DNA of 64,000 bases. Origin: a phage. The translations under genes and the position numbers were made by a program. Below the pieces are notes generated by a model. The model was not told the origin of the DNA and did not search any database. It saw only the letters and a list, made by a program, of their open reading frames with translations. Shown here in pieces: positions 2,088-63,522 of the stretch (the stretch's first letter is position 1; every line of letters begins with the position of its first letter). The stretch is taken from assembly GCA_024572335.1 (NCBI GenBank), contig GCA_024572335.1_3052.1, one strand, 5' to 3'.

Positions 2088-2771
2088 TTATCGTTTTGTT
2101 GGAAGAGACAGAGGATCGCACTCTTCCTCTGACGGAGCATCTTCAAGACCCATAGCATATCGCAAAGCATACTTCATCATCAGGATGTCTTTCGCACAAT
2201 CATGAATAGAATCATGCGCAACGAATCCATCTAAAGTTCCCTTTGGAAGAGGACATGTAGTCATATCACGAACAAGCAGAAGTGCTTCAATTCTGGTACG
2301 AATATCACGCTGATTCCAAAATTTACAAGGTTCTAACTTAAATGTATCAAGCTCATTCTCGGAAACACCATTAAGACGTTGAATATCGCGAATGAGATCA
2401 ACTAAAATTGGAAAATCAAACGACATTCCACGGCACCAGCCTTGAGATTTCCAAGGATCGATGTTATGTGCATTGATGTAATCATTAAATTTTGCAATAC
2501 CATCGATAGTGCTTACATCTTCATCTGATGGTGCAATATTTTTTCGAGCTTCAGGAGATTGATTTTTCCACCATTCGATAGTGCTTTTAGTAAAAAGACG
2601 ATGTCCTTTTTGACTTTTTAAGTCAAATTTAATTTTAATGCCACGTGAAACTAATTCATCGAATGTTTCAACAACTTCCGGGTTAGGGTCAAAAGCAATT
2701 ACAGCCAAATCAATAACAGCTGCTTTTTCACCGCTTCCCATCGTTTCAAAATCTATAATAAAATCAAACAT
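2088..2771 (-). CDS. dexA: Exonuclease A (DexA), DEDD-type 3'-5' exonuclease
   Basis: 227 aa, matching T4 DexA size; N-terminal FIIDFETMG acidic motif; position below dda. Confidence 0.8.
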   Translation of the reverse strand: MFDFIIDFETMGSGEKAAVIDLAVIAFDPNPEVVETFDELVSRGIKIKFDLKSQKGHRLFTKSTIEWWKNQSPEARKNIAPSDEDVSTIDGIAKFNDYINAHNIDPWKSQGWCRGMSFDFPILVDLIRDIQRLNGVSENELDTFKLEPCKFWNQRDIRTRIEALLLVRDMTTCPLPKGTLDGFVAHDSIHDCAKDILMMKYALRYAMGLEDAPSEEECDPLSLPTKR

Positions 2772-3013
2772 TAAACTTTCCTCGCTAAATCGCGAATTTG
2801 ACCTACAGTATAATCTTGGATATAAACTTTATTAATGGGCTCATCAATAAATTTTGCCATAGATTCAATATCTTTTTGCATCTCTTCAAGACTGTATACT
2901 ATCTTTGAAGCTTTTTCACGAATAGTTACATTTTCAGGTCCTGGATTTTCTTCAATGACAGCTTTAACATTTGCCATAAGAGATTTAAACTGATACCAAC
3001 TTAATTCAATCAT
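2771..3013 (-). CDS. Hypothetical small protein
   Basis: 80 aa ATG ORF, start overlaps dexA stop. Confidence 0.45.
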   Translation of the reverse strand: MIELSWYQFKSLMANVKAVIEENPGPENVTIREKASKIVYSLEEMQKDIESMAKFIDEPINKVYIQDYTVGQIRDLARKV

Positions 3014-3266
3014 TAATAATCGCCTTATAAAGATGGCTAATTTCGCCTAAAACATAATCACTGATTGTAACAGTTTTCACTTCACCACAAAAGAATTCTA
3101 ACGCAATTAAATCTCGTTCAATTTCTTCTAATTGAAGCATTAACTTGCCTGATTCAGTTTTCACATTTTTGCGATTTTTACTATAAGCTATTTCATAAAT
3201 TTCGCTTACTTTATCTTGAAGAAGATAAAACTGGTCTTTAGTTATTTCCACGAATAGCTTCCTCAA
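3006..3266 (-). CDS. Hypothetical small protein (start uncertain)
   Basis: 86 aa track ORF with TTG start; in-frame GTG at 3251 preceded by GAGGAA is a possible true start. Confidence 0.4.
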   Translation of the reverse strand: MRKLFVEITKDQFYLLQDKVSEIYEIAYSKNRKNVKTESGKLMLQLEEIERDLIALEFFCGEVKTVTISDYVLGEISHLYKAIIND

Positions 3267-3498
3267 ATTTAATTAGTAATTTACAGACACTTTCATCTAG
3301 TGTAATTACCGTATCTGTATTACTGTGATATGATTGTTTTTCAATTCGTTTAATTGCTAATATAGTATCACTTATAAGATAAAGCTTATGAAGGAGCTCA
3401 GCTCCTGTTACCATAACATCGAGATTATCTTGCTTATTAGTATGCTTCCTTATACCATCTATTAGACGATTTAAATATTTTGAATTGATGTTAATCAT
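3238..3498 (-). CDS. Hypothetical small protein
   Basis: 86 aa ATG ORF directly downstream of dda. Confidence 0.45.
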   Translation of the reverse strand: MININSKYLNRLIDGIRKHTNKQDNLDVMVTGAELLHKLYLISDTILAIKRIEKQSYHSNTDTVITLDESVCKLLIKFEEAIRGNN

Positions 3499-3504
3499 AT
3501 AGCC

Positions 3505-4824
3505 TCACACATAAAACACATCATAACGACCACGTGTTACACCAACATAAAGAAGCTGCTGAGCTAGTTCAGCATCTGCATAATGAATACAAGGCGTATA
3601 AATGAAAGCACGGTCTACAGACATACCCTGAGCTTTATGGAATGTTGATGCAGGAAGCGCTTTCACTTTACTAAACTGTGATTTAGCATCCCAAAAATCA
3701 CTCCACGGAGCTTTTCCGCCTTTATTCCAATTTTTATAAGTTTCTGCCGTTTTACCTAAAAACAGGTTAAACTTATATAGCTCTTCATCAGATGAAATTA
3801 TTTTAATCTTTTCACGATAATATTCATCATCGCCGTAAGTTTCTACTGTTAAATCCCAATGACGAATTAAGTATTCTCCAGGAACACCACGAGCTTTAAC
3901 AAACGTTGATGTATACTCTGCTTCTATAATACGAACTAATTGTCCATTATTAAAAATAATTTCTGATACAGGCTTTCCATCAATTTTATATGTTTTAATT
4001 AACGGTTCTTGCATTACAATAATTTCACCGACAATAAAATCTTTATCAGTTTCAAAAATCTTTTTACGAATAATGCTATTTAACTTATCAACAGATTTAT
4101 TCGTAAATGCCATTACGCGATTTTCAAACAAATCATCTAGTGATTTGACGATTGAAAAATAATTTACCATAAAATCGCGTAAAGCGGTATCACCAGTAAA
4201 TCCACGTACTCCATGACCGTCAACAACTTTATCATAAATCCACTTACCGTTACGAACGTCAGTAGCTACATCAATAATAGGAGCATTACTGCGTTTAACT
4301 TCAGTGAGTTCACACTGATAAAAATCTTTGTGTGTAAAGAATGGACTGATATAAGCAGTATTTTCTCCTGGATCAACAGGTCTAATTTGCTTATTATCAC
4401 CTATTCCAATTATAGTACACCACGGTGGGATAGTTGAAAGCAGAATTTTAAATAGCTTTCTATCATACATTGACACTTCGTCGCAGATTAATACCCTGCA
4501 TTTAGCTAAATCTGGTACTTCCTTCTGTTCAAAAAGAACGTTTTCTTCATACGTAACTGGGTTAATTTTAAGAATACTGTGAATAGTACTCGCTTCTTTC
4601 CCCGACAGTTTTGAAAGAATCTTTTTAGCTGCATGTGTAGGAGCTGCCAAAATGATACCAGTTTCGCCTGTTGATATTAAAGCTTCAATGATGAACTTAG
4701 TAAGAGTAGTCTTACCAGTACCAGCAGGTCCATTAATAGTTACATGATGTTTCTTTTCTTTAATAGCCCTCATAACGATGTTAAAGGCATTTTTCTGGCC
4801 TTCTGTCAAATCATCAAATGTCAT
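3505..4824 (-). CDS. dda: Dda DNA helicase (SF1B)
   Basis: 439 aa; Walker A GPAGTGKTT, Walker B CDEVSMYD; N-terminus matches recalled T4 Dda. Confidence 0.9.
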   Translation of the reverse strand: MTFDDLTEGQKNAFNIVMRAIKEKKHHVTINGPAGTGKTTLTKFIIEALISTGETGIILAAPTHAAKKILSKLSGKEASTIHSILKINPVTYEENVLFEQKEVPDLAKCRVLICDEVSMYDRKLFKILLSTIPPWCTIIGIGDNKQIRPVDPGENTAYISPFFTHKDFYQCELTEVKRSNAPIIDVATDVRNGKWIYDKVVDGHGVRGFTGDTALRDFMVNYFSIVKSLDDLFENRVMAFTNKSVDKLNSIIRKKIFETDKDFIVGEIIVMQEPLIKTYKIDGKPVSEIIFNNGQLVRIIEAEYTSTFVKARGVPGEYLIRHWDLTVETYGDDEYYREKIKIISSDEELYKFNLFLGKTAETYKNWNKGGKAPWSDFWDAKSQFSKVKALPASTFHKAQGMSVDRAFIYTPCIHYADAELAQQLLYVGVTRGRYDVFYV

Positions 4825-55528: not shown

Positions 55529-55909
55529 TCAATTAGAAAATAAATTTATCCAAGATTGTTCTTTAATTAAAAATGGCTCAGAATCATATGCCATTAAACT
55601 CTGTGTGATTAGTCCTTTAAAAGGCCCATCAATAAATTCCATGGTAAAATATGGAATTTTATTCATTAGCCGTGCATTAGGAGCAGTACATAAAACTCTG
55701 CATCCTTTGAATACGCCTTTTTGTAATTTGTATTGCTTAGGATAAAATTCGCTTAAAATGTTATTTTTTGCCAAAATTTCAAAATGATTCACCAATTTAT
55801 TTTTAATAGTTTTTGGCGAAAAATAAAGATATTCGAAAAGCTGAGTGTCTGTCATCATTGCATTCCAATCACAAAAAATTGAGGACGAGTAATACCACCA
55901 ATGCAACAT
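55529..55909 (-). CDS. Hypothetical protein
   Basis: 126 aa ATG ORF. Confidence 0.4.
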
Positions 55910-56394
55910 TTACTATTACAGCAGTAGTGTACAGTGTCAATATGGACACTATAAATCTTATCCATATCAGGAGATTTGACAGGCTCATCAATTATATACA
56001 AAATTCGCGAAAGCGATAAACCTCTGAACTTGCTTCCTTTATTACCAATAAAACTGCGCACAGAATCAGTAAATAAACGAAAACGTATATCATCATTAGA
56101 ATAACGCGAAAATTCCTTTTTAATGTTATTTGCAGAAATTTTAGCGTAAGCTGAAGTATTAGAAAGAACAATAACTGTTCCGCCATCATACAGCCAATTA
56201 GCAGCAAAGTTAGTCACAGCAATTGATTTACCAGATTGACGTCCACCGTCTAGTCGAAGTGTGCAATACTGCTTAAATAATTCTTCAAATGGCGGGATAT
56301 ATTCGTTTTTACAAATTTCTTCTACTCTAGCATCAGAATGGTGTGTAAAAGCATTCATCAGGGATAGATAAGGACCAGTTAAAAATGTTCTCAT
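55855..56394 (-). CDS. Small P-loop NTPase
   Basis: Walker A DGGRQSGKS, Walker B ILYIIDEP; likely start ATG 56394 (track start 56442). Confidence 0.5.
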   Translation of the reverse strand: MRTFLTGPYLSLMNAFTHHSDARVEEICKNEYIPPFEELFKQYCTLRLDGGRQSGKSIAVTNFAANWLYDGGTVIVLSNTSAYAKISANNIKKEFSRYSNDDIRFRLFTDSVRSFIGNKGSKFRGLSLSRILYIIDEPVKSPDMDKIYSVHIDTVHYCCNSKCCIGGITRPQFFVIGMQ

Positions 56395-56535
56395 TTTATT
56401 CTCTCTAGGTTTGGGCCATTCCGTGGCGCATGAATTGTCCATTTCTGTATTTACCCATTACCGCACTTGGGCTCGACCTTATTACAGGTTGGCGGGAATC
56501 CCTCATAGAATCATGAGGTCCAGTTTGTTCCCATA

Positions 56536-57009
56536 TTATTTGAACGATTTAACGTACTGAATAGAACCCTTACTATTCACAAAGGCAATTTTACCATTTT
56601 TATTATACATGGTAGCAGTACGCTGATAACCATAGGTTTGTTTACCAGATTGATAACCAACTAATGCAAAATTATCTTCACCCATTTTATTCTGTTTAGC
56701 GCGAATGCGTTCATGACCATGTGCCATAAGAACCTTAGCATCACCAGTTGCAATGGATCGACGAGTTTTTTCATCTTCAACTGCATTAACAAAGTCGTCA
56801 AATGAATCAAATTTAGCATGAGATTTATTATACAATTTTCCATCTACTGCATAATTATATCCCTGTACATCCATCTCAACTTCTGTACCATCATCCAATA
56901 CAGCAGTAATTTTTTGACCTTTTTTAAATTTCAAAAGATCAGTAAAAGATTCAGCAATAATTTGAGAATTAATAGCTGCTTCAGTGATAAATTCTTGATA
57001 TGTTTTCAT
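56536..57009 (-). CDS. Internal protein (IP) with capsid targeting sequence
   Basis: 157 aa; N-terminal MKTYQEFITEA matches the T4 IP capsid-targeting decapeptide; located just downstream of e as T4 ipIII/ipII. Confidence 0.6.
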   Translation of the reverse strand: MKTYQEFITEAAINSQIIAESFTDLLKFKKGQKITAVLDDGTEVEMDVQGYNYAVDGKLYNKSHAKFDSFDDFVNAVEDEKTRRSIATGDAKVLMAHGHERIRAKQNKMGEDNFALVGYQSGKQTYGYQRTATMYNKNGKIAFVNSKGSIQYVKSFK

Positions 57010-57097: not shown

Positions 57098-58066
<969 letters not shown>

Positions 58067-62693: not shown

Positions 62694-62770
<77 letters not shown>

Positions 62771-62777
62771 TATTTTG

Positions 62778-62849
62778 CGGACGTGATAGGATTCGAACCT
62801 ATAACCAATCGCTTAACAGGCGATCGCTCTGCCATTGAGCTACACATCC
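62778..62849 (-). tRNA. tRNA-Asn (anticodon GUU)
   Basis: Acceptor GGATGTG/CACGTCC, D-stem GCTC/GAGC, anticodon stem ATCGC/GCGAT, loop CTGTTAA, T-loop TTCGAAT; CCA not encoded. Confidence 0.8.
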
Positions 62850-62853
62850 AAAT

Positions 62854-62940
62854 TGGTGGGGAGTGGTGGAGTCGAACCACCCGAGTCGCAATGACAATGA
62901 ATTTACAGTCCACACCGCTACCTCTACGGGATAACTCCCC
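62854..62940 (-). tRNA. tRNA-Tyr (anticodon GUA), long variable arm
   Basis: Acceptor GGGGAGT/ACTCCCC, anticodon loop CTGTAAA, variable arm TGTCATTGCGACTCG similar to E. coli tRNA-Tyr; CCA encoded. Confidence 0.75.
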
Positions 62941-62949
62941 AAATTAATT

Positions 62950-63024
62950 TGGTGGCCCTGGGTGGAATTGAACCACCATCTGGCGATTATGAGTCGCTTG
63001 CTTGAACCTTCCAGCTACAGGGCC
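62950..63024 (-). tRNA. tRNA-Ile (anticodon CAU, lysidine-type as in T4) or Met
   Basis: Acceptor GGCCCTG/CAGGGCC, anticodon loop CTCATAA, T-arm GGTGG-TTCAATT-CCACC; CCA encoded. Confidence 0.75.
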
Positions 63025-63025
63025 T

Positions 63026-63101
63026 TGGTGCTGATTAACGGAATCGAACCGCCGACCTTCTCATTACAAGTGAGTTGCTCTACCTACTGAGCTAAATCAG
63101 C
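63026..63101 (-). tRNA. tRNA-Thr (anticodon UGU)
   Basis: Acceptor GCTGATT, D-stem GCTC/GAGC, anticodon loop CTTGTAA, T-loop TTCGATT; CCA encoded. Confidence 0.85.
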
Positions 63102-63106
63102 AAAAC

Positions 63107-63196
63107 TGGCGGAGGCGATAGGATTTGAACCTATGAGTCGCCGGAGCGACTGCCGGTTTTCAAGACCGGTGCATTAAACCACTCTGCCACGCCTCC
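63107..63196 (-). tRNA. tRNA-Ser (anticodon UGA), long variable arm
   Basis: Acceptor GGAGGCG, anticodon stem CCGGT/ACCGG, loop CTTGAAA, long variable arm; CCA encoded. Confidence 0.85.
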
Positions 63197-63198
63197 AG

Positions 63199-63272
63199 TC
63201 TCCATACAAGGATTTGAACCTTGGACCTCCTGATCCCAAATCAGGCGCTCTACCAAACTGAGCTACACGGAG
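63199..63272 (-). tRNA. tRNA-Pro (anticodon UGG)
   Basis: Acceptor CTCCGTG, anticodon stem CCTGA/TCAGG, loop TTTGGGA, T-loop TTCAAAT; CCA not encoded. Confidence 0.85.
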
Positions 63273-63282
63273 TAAATTAAAT

Positions 63283-63356
<74 letters not shown>

Positions 63357-63361
63357 AAATT

Positions 63362-63448
63362 TGGTGCGAGAAGTGGGACTCGAACCCACAAGGAAATCAT
63401 TCCGCAGCATTTTAAGTGCTGTGCCTTTACCAATTTGACCATTCTCGC
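63362..63448 (-). tRNA. tRNA-Leu (anticodon UAA), long variable arm
   Basis: Acceptor GCGAGAA, anticodon stem CAGCA/TGCTG, loop CTTAAAA, long variable arm, T-loop TTCGAGT; CCA encoded. Confidence 0.85.
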
Positions 63449-63449
63449 G

Positions 63450-63522
63450 CTGGGAATAAAGGACTCGAACCTTTGCATCCTGGAATCAAAATCCAGTGCC
63501 TTACCAACTTGGCTAATTCCCA
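63450..63522 (-). tRNA. tRNA-Gln (anticodon UUG)
   Basis: Acceptor TGGGAAT/ATTCCCA, anticodon stem CTGGA/TCCAG, loop TTTTGAT; CCA not encoded; separated from tRNA-Leu by 1 nt. Confidence 0.85.

What the first reader, a model, noticed from the sequence alone, without database searches (positions are those of the whole stretch)
55855..56535. Small P-loop NTPase preceded by a GC-rich, structured non-coding stretch
The 179-195-aa ORF has Walker A (GGRQSGKS) and Walker B (IIDEP) motifs. The about 140 nt between it and the upstream IP gene (56395..56535) is conspicuously GC-rich for this genome and contains an inverted repeat CCTCAT-N6-ATGAGG. It lacks the usual early-promoter cassette, suggesting a structured leader, a small RNA or a relic of inserted DNA. 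T4 has denV in this neighbourhood and no denV-like ORF is seen here.
Basis: partly seen in the sequence, partly recalled or inferred. Interest (0 to 1): 0.45.

Follow-up and report, generated by a model that had tools for sequence, protein, structure and literature searches.

The report
Undescribed conserved folded RNA before vs.8
The GC-rich gap in front of a small ATPase gene (phage T4 gene vs.8) is a copy of a strongly conserved, pseudoknotted RNA that matches no catalogued family and also sits beside the tRNA genes of unrelated coliphages, so it is probably a functional small RNA and not spacer DNA.

Summary
The window is a T2/T4-like phage. The ORF is gene vs.8, a 179-aa stand-alone P-loop ATPase starting at ATG 56394; the 195-aa form is a start-codon artefact. 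Walker A and B are invariant in the family, and the predicted fold resembles helicase and terminase ATPase domains. Its role is unknown.

The main result is the 141-nt gap (46% GC against 34% for the window). About 120 nt of it (56413..56532, minus strand) is a structured RNA element matching none of 4227 Rfam families. It has:
- a three-way junction with 23 invariant bases;
- a pseudoknot;
- an extra 3' domain found only in T4-like phages.

Helices covary while the junction stays fixed (88.5% of cells paired against 24-43% in slid controls). The core recurs in Vequintavirinae and several smaller coliphage lineages, almost always within about 0.05-1.2 kb of tRNA genes on the same strand. No copy was found in bacterial genomes. 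No reading frame is conserved, so it is neither coding nor a denV relic.

Most likely it is a discrete, processed small RNA that binds a conserved factor. Rivals are a cis-acting vs.8 leader and a ribozyme. No expression data exist.

The parts
55855..56394 (-). vs.8 gene: 179-aa stand-alone ASCE P-loop ATPase (Walker A DGGRQSGKS, Walker B ILYIIDEP)
   Evidence: PHROG 1488 matches full length, E=7e-79. The family alignment starts at MRTF/MKTF in all 18 members, and Walker A and B are invariant. AF2 pLDDT is 81. Foldseek hits are RecD, RadD, DEAD-box and terminase ATPase domains. Synteny with T4 vs.8.
56401..56405 (-). GAGAG, the likely Shine-Dalgarno of vs.8, 6 nt before ATG 56394
   Evidence: Read from the sequence. 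Purine-rich AGAG/AGGA lies at the same place in relatives. Inference.
56413..56532 (-). Whole structured RNA element, T4-like version: P1 domain, three-way-junction core, 3' domain
   Evidence: Homology with T4 begins exactly at the first G of P1. Covariation is shown. No Rfam match.
56494..56532 (-). P1 domain: outer helix GGGAA (56532-56528) with UUCCC (56498-56494), enclosing the internal loop CAAACUGGA and hairpin P1a
   Evidence: All pairs are canonical. The P1 sequence differs between lineages but stays complementary, with 11 different helix sequences. 16 of 19 representatives have a perfect 5-bp partner, against 4.6 expected.
56501..56518 (-).
   Evidence: Compensatory variants: CCUUAU/AUAAGG in L187, and CCUCA/UGAGG with different loops in L027 and L190.
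56453..56493 (-). Three-way-junction core. P2 is GCC (56493-91) with GGU (56455-53). P3 is ACCU-GUAAUA-AGGU (56489-56476). P4' is the mini-hairpin GC-CCAAGU-GC (56472-56463). Junction strands are AA, UCGA and GGUAAUG.
   Evidence: 23 columns are invariant in 27 sequences from all lineages. P2 pairs: CG20/UA3/GC2/AU1/GU1 and CG21/GC5. P4' changes C-G to U-A in L051 copy 2 and in L206. CM hit 56446..56500, 74 bits.
56445..56447 (-). CAG, the candidate 3' strand of the pseudoknot; its partner is CUG at 56521-56523 in the P1 internal loop
   Evidence: Placed by homology with the pseudoknot of other T4-like genera, where alignment columns 13-109 show CG/AU/UA/GC and columns 14-108 show GC/CG. It is only 3 bp in this copy, and 4 bp (CCUG/CAGG) in L190. 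Weak here.
56415..56427 (-). P5 hairpin GCCA-CGGAA-UGGC, the end of the T4-like 3' domain
   Evidence: Compensated variants are GUCA/UGAC (L204) and CCG/CGG (S16). RNAalifold instead pairs its 3' strand with the core, so an alternative pairing is not excluded.
56438..56442 (-). AUGGA motif of the 3' domain (GGA invariant); its AUG is the start codon of the 195-aa ORF reading
   Evidence: GGA is invariant in the A3 and A4 alignments. The 16 extra codons are not conserved as protein, and homologues in other genera are 173-181 aa.
56405..56506 (-). 33-codon ORF (MRDSRQPV...) inside the RNA element. In T4 an 8-nt insertion fuses it to vs.8, giving the annotated 219 aa. Judged non-coding.
   Evidence: No PHROG match. 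Outside Tequatrovirus nearly every frame across the element has stop codons, and no frame stays open across lineages.
56536..57009 (-). ip4 (internal virion protein, DUF7412); its stop codon lies 3 nt before P1
   Evidence: Pfam E=9.4e-96. Annotated ipIV/Ip4 in T2 and RB14.

Best explanation
Two separate things lie here.

**1. The ORF.** It is the T-even gene vs.8, a 179-aa single-domain ASCE (RecA-like) P-loop ATPase that starts at ATG 56394. It belongs to a small orphan family. This is shown.

**2. The gap.** The 141-nt 'non-coding' stretch is a copy of an undescribed, strongly conserved RNA element, transcribed on the minus strand together with ip4 and vs.8. Its structure is shown by covariation:
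- a P1 hairpin whose loop or internal loop pairs with the segment just 3' of the core (a pseudoknot);
- a three-way junction (P2, P3, P4') whose junction strands and P3 are invariant: A-CCUGURAUAAGG-UCGAGC-NNNNGN-GCGGUAA.

T4-like phages add a 3' domain (P4, P5) that ends 8 nt before the vs.8 Shine-Dalgarno.

**How it most likely works (inferred).** The element is a self-contained functional RNA module. In most lineages it is released from polycistronic transcripts as a stable RNA of about 75-130 nt. It then acts through its invariant junction by binding a factor common to enterobacterial hosts or to these phages, plausibly something connected with tRNA biology.

In T4-like phages the module sits between the variable internal-protein/denV cassette and vs.8. 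There it also forms the vs.8 leader and may influence vs.8 translation.
For: **Structure**
- MAFFT alignment of 21 non-Tequatrovirus T4-like copies: 88.5% of cells paired against 24-43% when partners are slid. Covariation score 0.218 against 0.044 or less. 0 of 500 shuffles reach it.
- One pseudoknot pair shows all four Watson-Crick types with no mismatch.
- Gapless 27-sequence alignment across all lineages: P2 covaries (CG/UA/GC/AU/GU) and 23 core columns are invariant.
- P1 has 11 different complementary sequences; 16 of 19 representatives have a perfect partner against 4.6 expected.
- P4' is compensated twice.
- Every proposed pair is canonical in the window copy.

**Not coding.** Nearly every frame has stop codons outside Tequatrovirus, and no frame stays open across lineages.

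**Independent module**
- The core is present in 1118 phage records, including Vequintavirinae and phages of about 45-96 kb.
- There the flanking genes are unrelated to each other and to vs.8.
- In pangalan a consensus promoter, TTGACA-17-TAAAAT, follows the element.
- In L049 an intrinsic terminator follows it.
- In the 46-kb group it lies between two long inverted-repeat hairpins.
- 22 of 30 non-T4-like loci carry tRNA genes. All are on the element's strand, at a median distance of about 520 nt. L202 is 47 nt from the array, and in L182 the element lies inside the array.

**Selection on the RNA, not on neighbours.** The core scores 54-71 bits upstream of vs.8 homologues of only 40-55% amino-acid identity. 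Homology with T4 starts exactly at P1.

**Phage-specific**
- No true copy among 185,579 bacterial species genomes; pattern hits score 26 bits or less.
- None in 5,426 E. coli genomes.

**ATPase.**
Against: - There is no expression, end-mapping or stability data for this RNA in any phage. 'Processed stable RNA' is inferred from context alone.
- I derived the structure by inspecting the same sequences I then counted, which inflates the slid-partner control. The compensatory changes are not affected by this.
- Single-sequence folding is unremarkable (z = 0.06). The comparative structure (-21 to -23 kcal/mol) is not the MFE (-30.2).
- The pseudoknot is only 3 bp in the window's own copy. Per-sequence permutation tests of the pseudoknot are not significant.
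- In T4-like phages the element lies about 6 kb from the tRNA cluster and directly in front of vs.8, which fits a cis role equally well.
- In T2, vs.8 is frameshifted and an otherwise invariant P3 base is also mutated. That hints at functional coupling between the RNA and vs.8.
- The binding partner is pure conjecture.
Confidence: 0.55

Rival explanations
1. The element is a cis-acting leader that controls vs.8. It would work as a riboswitch-like or protein-binding operator. The conserved junction senses a ligand or protein, and the T4-specific 3' domain (P4, P5, ending 8 nt before the Shine-Dalgarno) is the expression platform.
For: - In every T4-like genus examined the element lies directly upstream of vs.8, with the 3' domain abutting the ribosome-binding site.
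- The 3' strand of P5 can alternatively pair with the invariant core, a switch-like arrangement.
- In T2 both vs.8 and an invariant P3 base are damaged.
- In L049 the element is followed by an intrinsic terminator and then a gene.
Against: - In JD18-type phages an ip gene lies between the element and vs.8.
- In pangalan a consensus promoter separates it from the next gene.
- In L182 and L202 it lies inside or at the end of tRNA arrays.
- Downstream genes outside T4-like phages are unrelated: a 629-aa protein, an HNH endonuclease, a 116-aa protein.
- No vs.8 homologue was seen in those loci.
Confidence: 0.25
2. The element is a small self-cleaving ribozyme of a new class, or another RNA-processing signal, that cuts polycistronic phage transcripts. 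In T4-like phages it would cut between ip4 and vs.8; elsewhere it would cut within tRNA precursor transcripts.
For: - It has a compact pseudoknotted three-way junction with about 23 invariant junction nucleotides and freely covarying helices.
- Its gene contexts are scattered and inconsistent across several phage families.
- From general knowledge, both features are typical of small self-cleaving ribozymes found in phage DNA.
- Tandem copies occur in Karamvirus-like contigs.
Against: - No match to any Rfam ribozyme model, even at E up to 10.
- Junction strand lengths (2, 4 and 7 nt) and sequences do not fit the hammerhead core, judged from memory of that core.
- No cleavage data exist.
- The flanking long hairpins in 46-kb phages suggest that processing by host nucleases is sufficient.
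Confidence: 0.12
3. The stretch is a DNA-level feature. It would be a deletion scar or relic of inserted DNA (for example a lost denV), or a recombination module that mediates cassette shuffling, like the promoter-early stem-loop (PeSL) cassettes of T4-type phages.
For: - It borders the hypervariable ip/denV cassette, and homology between T4 and the window begins exactly at its 5' edge.
- Its GC content is atypical for the genome.
Against: - Compensatory base changes keep the helices, including G-U pairs that work only on the transcribed strand.
- The element is intact in T4, which still has denV.
- No early promoter lies in it.
- It is co-oriented with tRNA genes in every non-T4-like locus that carries any (22 of 30).
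- Its core is far more conserved than the flanking genes.
Confidence: 0.04
4. The stretch is protein-coding. It would be either an N-terminal extension of vs.8 (195 aa here, 219 aa as annotated in T4) or a separate 33-aa peptide.
For: - One frame is open across the element in Tequatrovirus.
- T4's RefSeq annotation and ESH35's annotation include it.
Against: - The frames differ between T4, the window and T2. An 8-nt insertion creates the T4 fusion.
- Nearly every frame has stops in the other lineages, and no frame stays open across them.
- vs.8 homologues in other genera are 173-181 aa and all begin at MRTF/MKTF. The PHROG profile is 177 aa.
- The 33-aa ORF matches no PHROG.
- The substitution pattern is compensatory pairing, not codon-wise.
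Confidence: 0.03

Closest known systems
Phage T4 gene vs.8 (NP_049732; PHROG 1488, 'unknown function')
   Same: Same gene. It sits at the same position, between the ip/denV block and vs.7-vs.6. Nucleotide identity is roughly 95% or more, and the PHROG match is full length.
   Different: T4's annotated product is 219 aa, because an 8-nt insertion fuses a 33-codon frame inside the RNA element to vs.8. Here, and in other genera, the product is 179 aa (range 173-181).
ATPase domains of large terminases, phi29 packaging ATPase and SF1/SF2 helicases (ASCE P-loop NTPases)
   Same: It has Walker A and Walker B motifs and a central beta-sheet RecA-like fold. Supporting matches are phrog_2 (terminase large subunit) at E=9e-6 and Foldseek probabilities of 0.9-1.0.
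   Different: It is a single 179-aa domain with no nuclease or second RecA domain. Pfam scores are below gathering thresholds. TM-scores are only about 0.45. A profile search of 1.84 billion proteins finds only 50 small relatives and no terminase.
T4 RNA C and RNA D (stable small RNAs from the tRNA region, function unknown; Uzan and Miller 2010, PMC3014915)
   Same: They are phage-encoded structured small RNAs of unknown function associated with tRNA gene clusters. Outside T4-like phages this element occupies the same kind of position.
   Different: No similarity was detected. The covariance model finds a single copy in the window, and none next to the tRNA cluster at 62.7-63.5 kb. In T4-like phages this element lies about 6 kb from the tRNAs.
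T4/T2 gene 32 mRNA pseudoknot (translational operator)
   Same: It is a pseudoknotted structure in a 5' leader of a T-even gene (PMC3014915).
   Different: The sequence and architecture are unrelated; this element is a three-way junction plus a pseudoknot. No known protein partner exists. It also occurs outside any leader context, in other phage families.
Orphan structured RNAs of phages that cluster with tRNA genes (Drum, ROOL, GOLLD motifs of Rfam; the association is recalled from memory)
   Same: It is phage-borne, lies near tRNA genes, is supported by covariation, and has no known function.
   Different: No Rfam covariance model matches. It is much smaller than ROOL or GOLLD. So far it is restricted to phages of Enterobacteria.
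PeSL (promoter-early stem-loop) cassettes of T4-type phages (Arbiol, Comeau and Krisch 2010; from memory)
   Same: It is a conserved intergenic module at the edge of a hyperplastic region.
   Different: It has no early promoter. Covariation shows selection at the RNA level. It is shared with non-T4 phage families.

Membership tests
P-loop NTPase, ASCE division | Walker A motif GxxxxGK[ST] | tested here: met
   GGRQSGKS; DGGRQSGK is invariant in 18 family members.
P-loop NTPase, ASCE division | Walker B motif: hydrophobic strand ending in D, followed by the catalytic E | tested here: met
   ILYIIDEP. I, I, E and P are invariant, and D is present in at least 90% of members.
P-loop NTPase, ASCE division | RecA-like alpha/beta fold with a central parallel sheet | tested here: met
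   The AF2 model (pLDDT 81, pTM 0.81) has five strands alternating with helices. Best Foldseek matches are RecD, RadD, DEAD-box, phi29 and P74-26 terminase ATPase domains. TM-scores are only about 0.45.
P-loop NTPase, ASCE division | NTP binding and hydrolysis | not testable with these tools
   Needs biochemistry.
T4 Vs.8 family (PHROG 1488) | Full-length profile match and conserved synteny | tested here: met
   E=7e-79 over 3-179 of 179 residues. Gene order is ip/denV - element - vs.8 - vs.7 - vs.6, as in T4 and T2.
Large terminase (Terminase_6N, PF03237) | Score at or above Pfam gathering threshold | tested here: not met
   12.5 bits against a cut-off of 22.
Large terminase (Terminase_6N, PF03237) | C-terminal RNase H-like nuclease domain | tested here: not met
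   The protein ends at residue 179, straight after the ATPase domain.
Any Rfam 15 RNA family, including hammerhead, twister, pistol, hatchet, HDV-like, riboswitch classes and Drum | Covariance-model match | tested here: not met
   No hit over 56395..56535 at E up to 10, in a 3-kb or a 171-nt search. Only tRNAs reach gathering score in the whole window.
tRNA / tmRNA | Cloverleaf detected by ARAGORN | tested here: not met
   The ten tRNAs lie at 62694..63522 only; none at this locus.
Riboswitch (generic) | Conserved structured aptamer with an invariant junction | tested here: met
Riboswitch (generic) | Consistent location in the leaders of functionally related genes, with an expression platform | tested here: not met
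   This holds only within T4-like phages (vs.8). Elsewhere the element is followed by a promoter, tRNAs or unrelated genes.
Riboswitch (generic) | Ligand-dependent conformational change | not testable with these tools
   Needs in-line probing.
Self-cleaving ribozyme (generic) | Site-specific self-scission | not testable with these tools
   Needs an in vitro cleavage assay.
PeSL cassette | Early sigma-70 promoter joined to a stem-loop | tested here: not met
   No promoter-like site on the minus strand within 56395..56535.
Intrinsic terminator | GC-rich hairpin followed by a U run | tested here: not met
   None found in the gap.

The most novel reading that the evidence does not exclude
The element is a new class of functional phage RNA that acts through its invariant three-way junction. 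It would be either a small self-cleaving ribozyme, or a decoy or sponge for a host factor of tRNA metabolism or of tRNA-directed anti-phage defence. Virulent coliphages of several families, T4 included, would carry it as a mobile RNA module.
Probability: 0.2. Interest if true: 0.9.

Novelty: new variant of a known kind. Interest (0 to 1): 0.7.

Why it matters
T4 is among the most thoroughly studied genomes. Even so, the 2010 review of its post-transcriptional control states that no riboswitch or trans-acting small RNA has been characterised from it (PMC3014915).

Here is a roughly 120-nt RNA, present in T4, T2 and more than a thousand sequenced phages. Its core is held almost invariant across Straboviridae, Vequintavirinae and several smaller coliphage lineages while its helices covary. 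That pattern marks a specific molecular function: catalysis, or binding of a ligand or protein.

Its repeated placement in tRNA gene arrays links it to the open question of what phage tRNA clusters and their companion small RNAs, such as T4 RNA C and D, are for. One current idea is counter-defence against tRNA-targeting nucleases.

The element is small, easy to synthesise and easy to mutate in a genetically tractable phage, so the hypotheses can be tested directly.

It also corrects annotations. The vs.8 start codon in T4 and many relatives is probably wrong, because part of this RNA has been read as protein.

Tried and rejected
- **Rfam.** Three searches: 3 kb at E up to 10, 171 nt at E up to 10, and the whole window at gathering score. 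Nothing was found at the locus.
- **ARAGORN.** No tRNA or tmRNA at the locus.
- **Single-sequence folding.** z-scores of 0.06 and -0.88, so uninformative.
- **RNAalifold on a mixed alignment.** It recovered only P1a and a long-range core/3'-tail pairing. MAFFT had put the two P1 types out of register, so I treated the types separately.
- **Per-sequence permutation test of the pseudoknot.** Not significant; the search space is too large for helices of 4-7 bp.
- **Wasted scan.** One viral-contig scan used a wrongly spaced pattern and found nothing.
- **Bacterial genome scan.** 113 pattern hits, all in GC-rich sequence without the flanking motif, scoring 26 bits or less with the model. I rejected them as chance.
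- **E. coli genomes.** No match.
- **Coding hypothesis.** Rejected on stop codons, frame differences and family length.
- **denV-relic hypothesis.** Rejected, because T4 has both denV and the element.
- **Promoter and terminator scan.** Nothing in the gap, and counts for the region do not exceed shuffles.
- **Repeat search in L045.** The tool missed the imperfect flanking hairpins, so I read them by eye.
- **vs.8 function.** NCBIfam gave nothing. PADLOC gave only a weak HerA-like hit (E=0.004). PDB sequence search gave nothing below E=0.07. A profile search of 1.84 billion proteins returned 50 small orphans. Pfam on remote members gave only sub-threshold AAA_14.
- **Literature.** Searches by gene name, by sequence string and by topic found no description of this RNA.
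Full report
**What the window is, and what the ORF is**

- The 1.7 kb around the finding is 99.8% identical to Shigella phage ESH35 and 96-97% identical to T2 and RB14. All are Tequatrovirus.
- On the minus strand the gene order is e (lysozyme, 57098..57592), ip4 (56536..57009, DUF7412), the gap, the ORF, vs.7, then vs.6 (GrcA-like).
- In T4 the ORF's counterpart is vs.8.
- denV, ipII and ipIII of T4 are absent from the whole window. In relatives denV sits at varying places: next to vs.8 in T4, and between e and ip4 in NBEco003. Its absence here is ordinary cassette variation.

**The NTPase**

- PHROG 1488 ('unknown function') matches residues 3-179 at E=7e-79. There is a weak match to the large-terminase ATPase region at E=9e-6.
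- Pfam, NCBIfam, PADLOC and PDB sequence searches give nothing above threshold.
- Homologues form 27 clusters, all from T4-like phages. Those from other genera are 173-181 aa.
- In the alignment every member starts at MRTF/MKTF. DGGRQSGK (Walker A) and the I, I, E and P of IIDEP (Walker B) are invariant; the D is near-invariant. Two arginines are also invariant.
- The AlphaFold model (pLDDT 81) is a five-stranded alpha/beta domain. Its best structural neighbours are RecA-like cores of RecD, RadD and DEAD-box helicases, and the phi29 and P74-26 packaging ATPases, at TM about 0.45.
- A profile search of 1.84 billion representatives finds only 50 small relatives and no known family.
- So the P-loop claim stands, the true product is 179 aa starting at 56394, and the function remains unknown.
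- The 195-aa reading starts at an AUG inside a conserved RNA motif (AUGGA).
- T4's 219-aa annotation arises from an 8-nt insertion that fuses a 33-codon frame to vs.8.

**The gap is a conserved element**

- Among T4, T2, NBEco003, ESH35 and the window, the 130 nt before the ATG are as conserved as coding sequence. Homology with T4 begins exactly at GGGAAC (56532).
- A 161-nt blastn query hits 1118 phage records. In other T4-like genera (Jiaodavirus, Gelderlandvirus, Mosigvirus, Karamvirus, Winklervirus) only the central 80 nt align.
- In Vequintavirinae and in a 45-kb phage (Ivi) only about 32-45 nt align, at 86-97% identity, in unannotated intergenic DNA.
- Pattern scans of IMG/VR and of metagenomes added further lineages: contigs of 46-70 kb, 75 kb and 96 kb.
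- The shared core is ACCUGUAAUAAGGUCGAGCC(C/A)AAGUGCGGUAA.

**Structure of the element**

*In T4-like genera other than Tequatrovirus.* I used a MAFFT alignment of 21 distinct copies, made without any structural input. The structure I wrote down has P1, P1a, P2, P3, a pseudoknot, P4 and P5.
- 88.5% of cells are paired, against 24-43% when 3' partners are slid by 1-3 columns.
- The covariation score is 0.218, against 0.044 or less, and 0 of 500 shuffles reach it.
- Pseudoknot pair 13-109 shows CG, AU, UA and GC with no mismatch. Pair 14-108 shows GC and CG. P1 pair 7-54 shows GC, CG and AU.

*Across all lineages.* I used a gapless, anchor-defined alignment of 27 sequences.
- 23 core columns are invariant.
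- The short helix P2 that closes the core covaries. Column pair 10-46 shows CG 20, UA 3, GC 2, AU 1, GU 1, with none unpaired.

*P1.* The 5 nt immediately 5' of P2 have a perfect 5-bp partner upstream in 16 of 19 representatives, against 4.6 expected. There are 11 different helix sequences.

*P4'.* This 2-bp mini-hairpin inside the core changes C-G to U-A in two divergent copies.

*The fold.* The core is therefore a three-way junction (P2, P3, P4') with junction strands AA, UCGA and GGUAAUG. It is preceded by a hairpin whose loop pairs with the segment after P2. Examples of that pairing:
- CUCCGG/CCGGAG in Ivi
- CGGA/UCCG in the 46-kb group
- GUGAGGG/CCCUUAC in L048
- CCUGA/UCAGG in Kc304

*In the window copy.* All helices are canonical. 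The pseudoknot is only CUG/CAG here.

*Strand.* G-U pairs, and co-orientation with neighbouring genes, assign the RNA to the minus strand.

**What it is not**

- It matches no Rfam family and no tRNA or tmRNA model.
- It is not coding. Only Tequatrovirus has an open frame across it, and that frame differs between T4, T2 and the window.
- It is not a relic, because T4 has both denV and the element.
- It carries no promoter or terminator.
- It is not of host origin. There is no hit in 5,426 E. coli genomes. The 113 pattern hits among 185,579 bacterial species genomes are chance matches scoring 26 bits or less, against 74 bits here.
- The window holds a single copy.

**Context, and the most likely way it works**

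- In T4-like phages the element fills the whole gap between the stop codon of the last ip/denV-cassette gene and the vs.8 ribosome-binding site. In JD18-type phages an extra ip gene follows it.
- Outside T4-like phages, 22 of 30 loci contain tRNA genes. All of these are on the element's strand, at a median distance of about 520 nt. L202 lies 47 nt downstream of an array, and in L182 the element lies between two tRNAs.
- The downstream genes there are unrelated to each other.
- In pangalan a perfect TTGACA-17-TAAAAT promoter follows the element.
- In the 46-kb group two stems of about 19 bp flank it, resembling RNase III-type processing hairpins. That resemblance is my inference.
- Karamvirus-like contigs carry two tandem copies.
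- These contexts fit a self-contained RNA module better than a leader. I therefore favour a discrete small RNA, released by processing, that acts through its invariant junction.
- The cis-leader model stays serious for T4-like phages, for three reasons. The 3' domain abuts the Shine-Dalgarno. The P5 3' strand can alternatively pair with the core. T2 carries lesions in both vs.8 and an invariant P3 base.
- A ribozyme cannot be excluded.

**Comparison with what is known, and novelty**

- The ORF is a known but uncharacterised gene.
- I found no description of the RNA in Rfam or in the searchable literature.
- The T4 review states that no riboswitch or trans-acting small RNA has been characterised in T4, and that RNA C and D of the tRNA region are of unknown role.
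- In kind, the element resembles other orphan phage RNAs that accompany tRNA genes. It is a separate family with its own architecture.

**Caveats**

- There is no expression evidence.
- I derived the structure from the same sequences I counted.
- Sequences were collected with core-anchored patterns, so the invariance of the core is partly an ascertainment effect. The blastn and covariance-model hits with variant cores show it is not entirely so.
- The proposed partner and function are conjecture.

Noticed in passing
L004 (T4 NC_000866) 3395..3413, compared with window 56395..56410: T4 carries an 8-nt insertion (a duplicated CTTATAGAG) just upstream of the vs.8 ATG. It fuses a 33-codon frame inside the RNA element to vs.8, so RefSeq annotates 219 aa. 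The old entry X04567 already listed alternative starts at 219, 203, 190 and 179 aa. The 179-aa start is the one conserved across genera.
   Followed up: yes
L001 (T2 NC_054931) 2956..3602: In T2, two 2-nt deletions break vs.8 into three ORF fragments of 35, 57 and 116 aa. The RNA element upstream carries a G-to-U change at an otherwise invariant P3 base (AAGGUC becomes AAUGUC). This may indicate joint decay of the gene and the RNA.
   Followed up: partly
L051, L053, L198 (Karamvirus-like contigs): Two tandem copies of the element lie about 110 nt apart. The second has a divergent core (UCAGCCCGCGGCGGUAA or CCAGUCCGCGACGGUAA) and scores 34-43 bits. These copies give compensatory evidence for P4' and for the pseudoknot.
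   Followed up: partly
L045 8650..8930 (- strand); also L041, L043, L052, L055, L172, L178, L189: In phages of about 46-70 kb the element lies between two imperfect inverted repeats. They have stems of about 19 bp (ACAACAGGAAAUGGCAUUU/AAAGUGCCAUUUCCGUUGU type) that enclose loops of 45-50 nt. The same repeat family recurs along the tRNA region and may mark processing sites.
   Followed up: partly
L005 (pangalan) 2120..2150; L029, L048: A perfect sigma-70 consensus promoter (TTGACA-17-TAAAAT or TAAACT) follows the element in vequintaviruses. A repeated motif, AGAGGGCUUGA(U/A)AGUGC, flanks it on both sides.
   Followed up: no
window 62694..63522 (-): A cluster of ten tRNA genes (Arg, Asn, Tyr, Met, Thr, Ser, Pro, Gly, Leu, Gln) lies on the same strand as the element, about 6.2 kb upstream in transcription terms. 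T4 is usually described as having eight tRNAs, with Ile and without Asn, Tyr or Met (from memory).
   Followed up: no
window 56536..57009 and the whole window: A single ip4 (DUF7412) gene replaces T4's ipII and ipIII, and denV is absent from the 64 kb. This fits the T2-type arrangement; T2 is classically more UV-sensitive than T4 (from memory).
   Followed up: partly
window 56438..56442 and 56419..56423; homologous positions in A3 and A4: The T4-like 3' domain carries two conserved GGA motifs. One is AUGGA; in Mosigvirus it reads AUACAUGGAUGA. The other is the P5 loop A/C-GGAA. From memory, they resemble CsrA-binding sites (GGA in a hairpin loop). I did not test this.
   Followed up: no
L007 / L032 (Escherichia phage Av-05, NC_025830): The record is classified under Vequintavirinae (Avunavirus). 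At this locus, however, it has a T4-type gene order (ip genes, denV, element, vs.8, GrcA, regB). The taxonomy or the assembly deserves a check.
   Followed up: no
L204, L206 (metagenomic T4-like contigs): The neighbourhood downstream of vs.8 includes an Acb2/Tad1-type gene (PF24729, the vs.4 position). The element therefore lies in a region rich in counter-defence genes.
   Followed up: no
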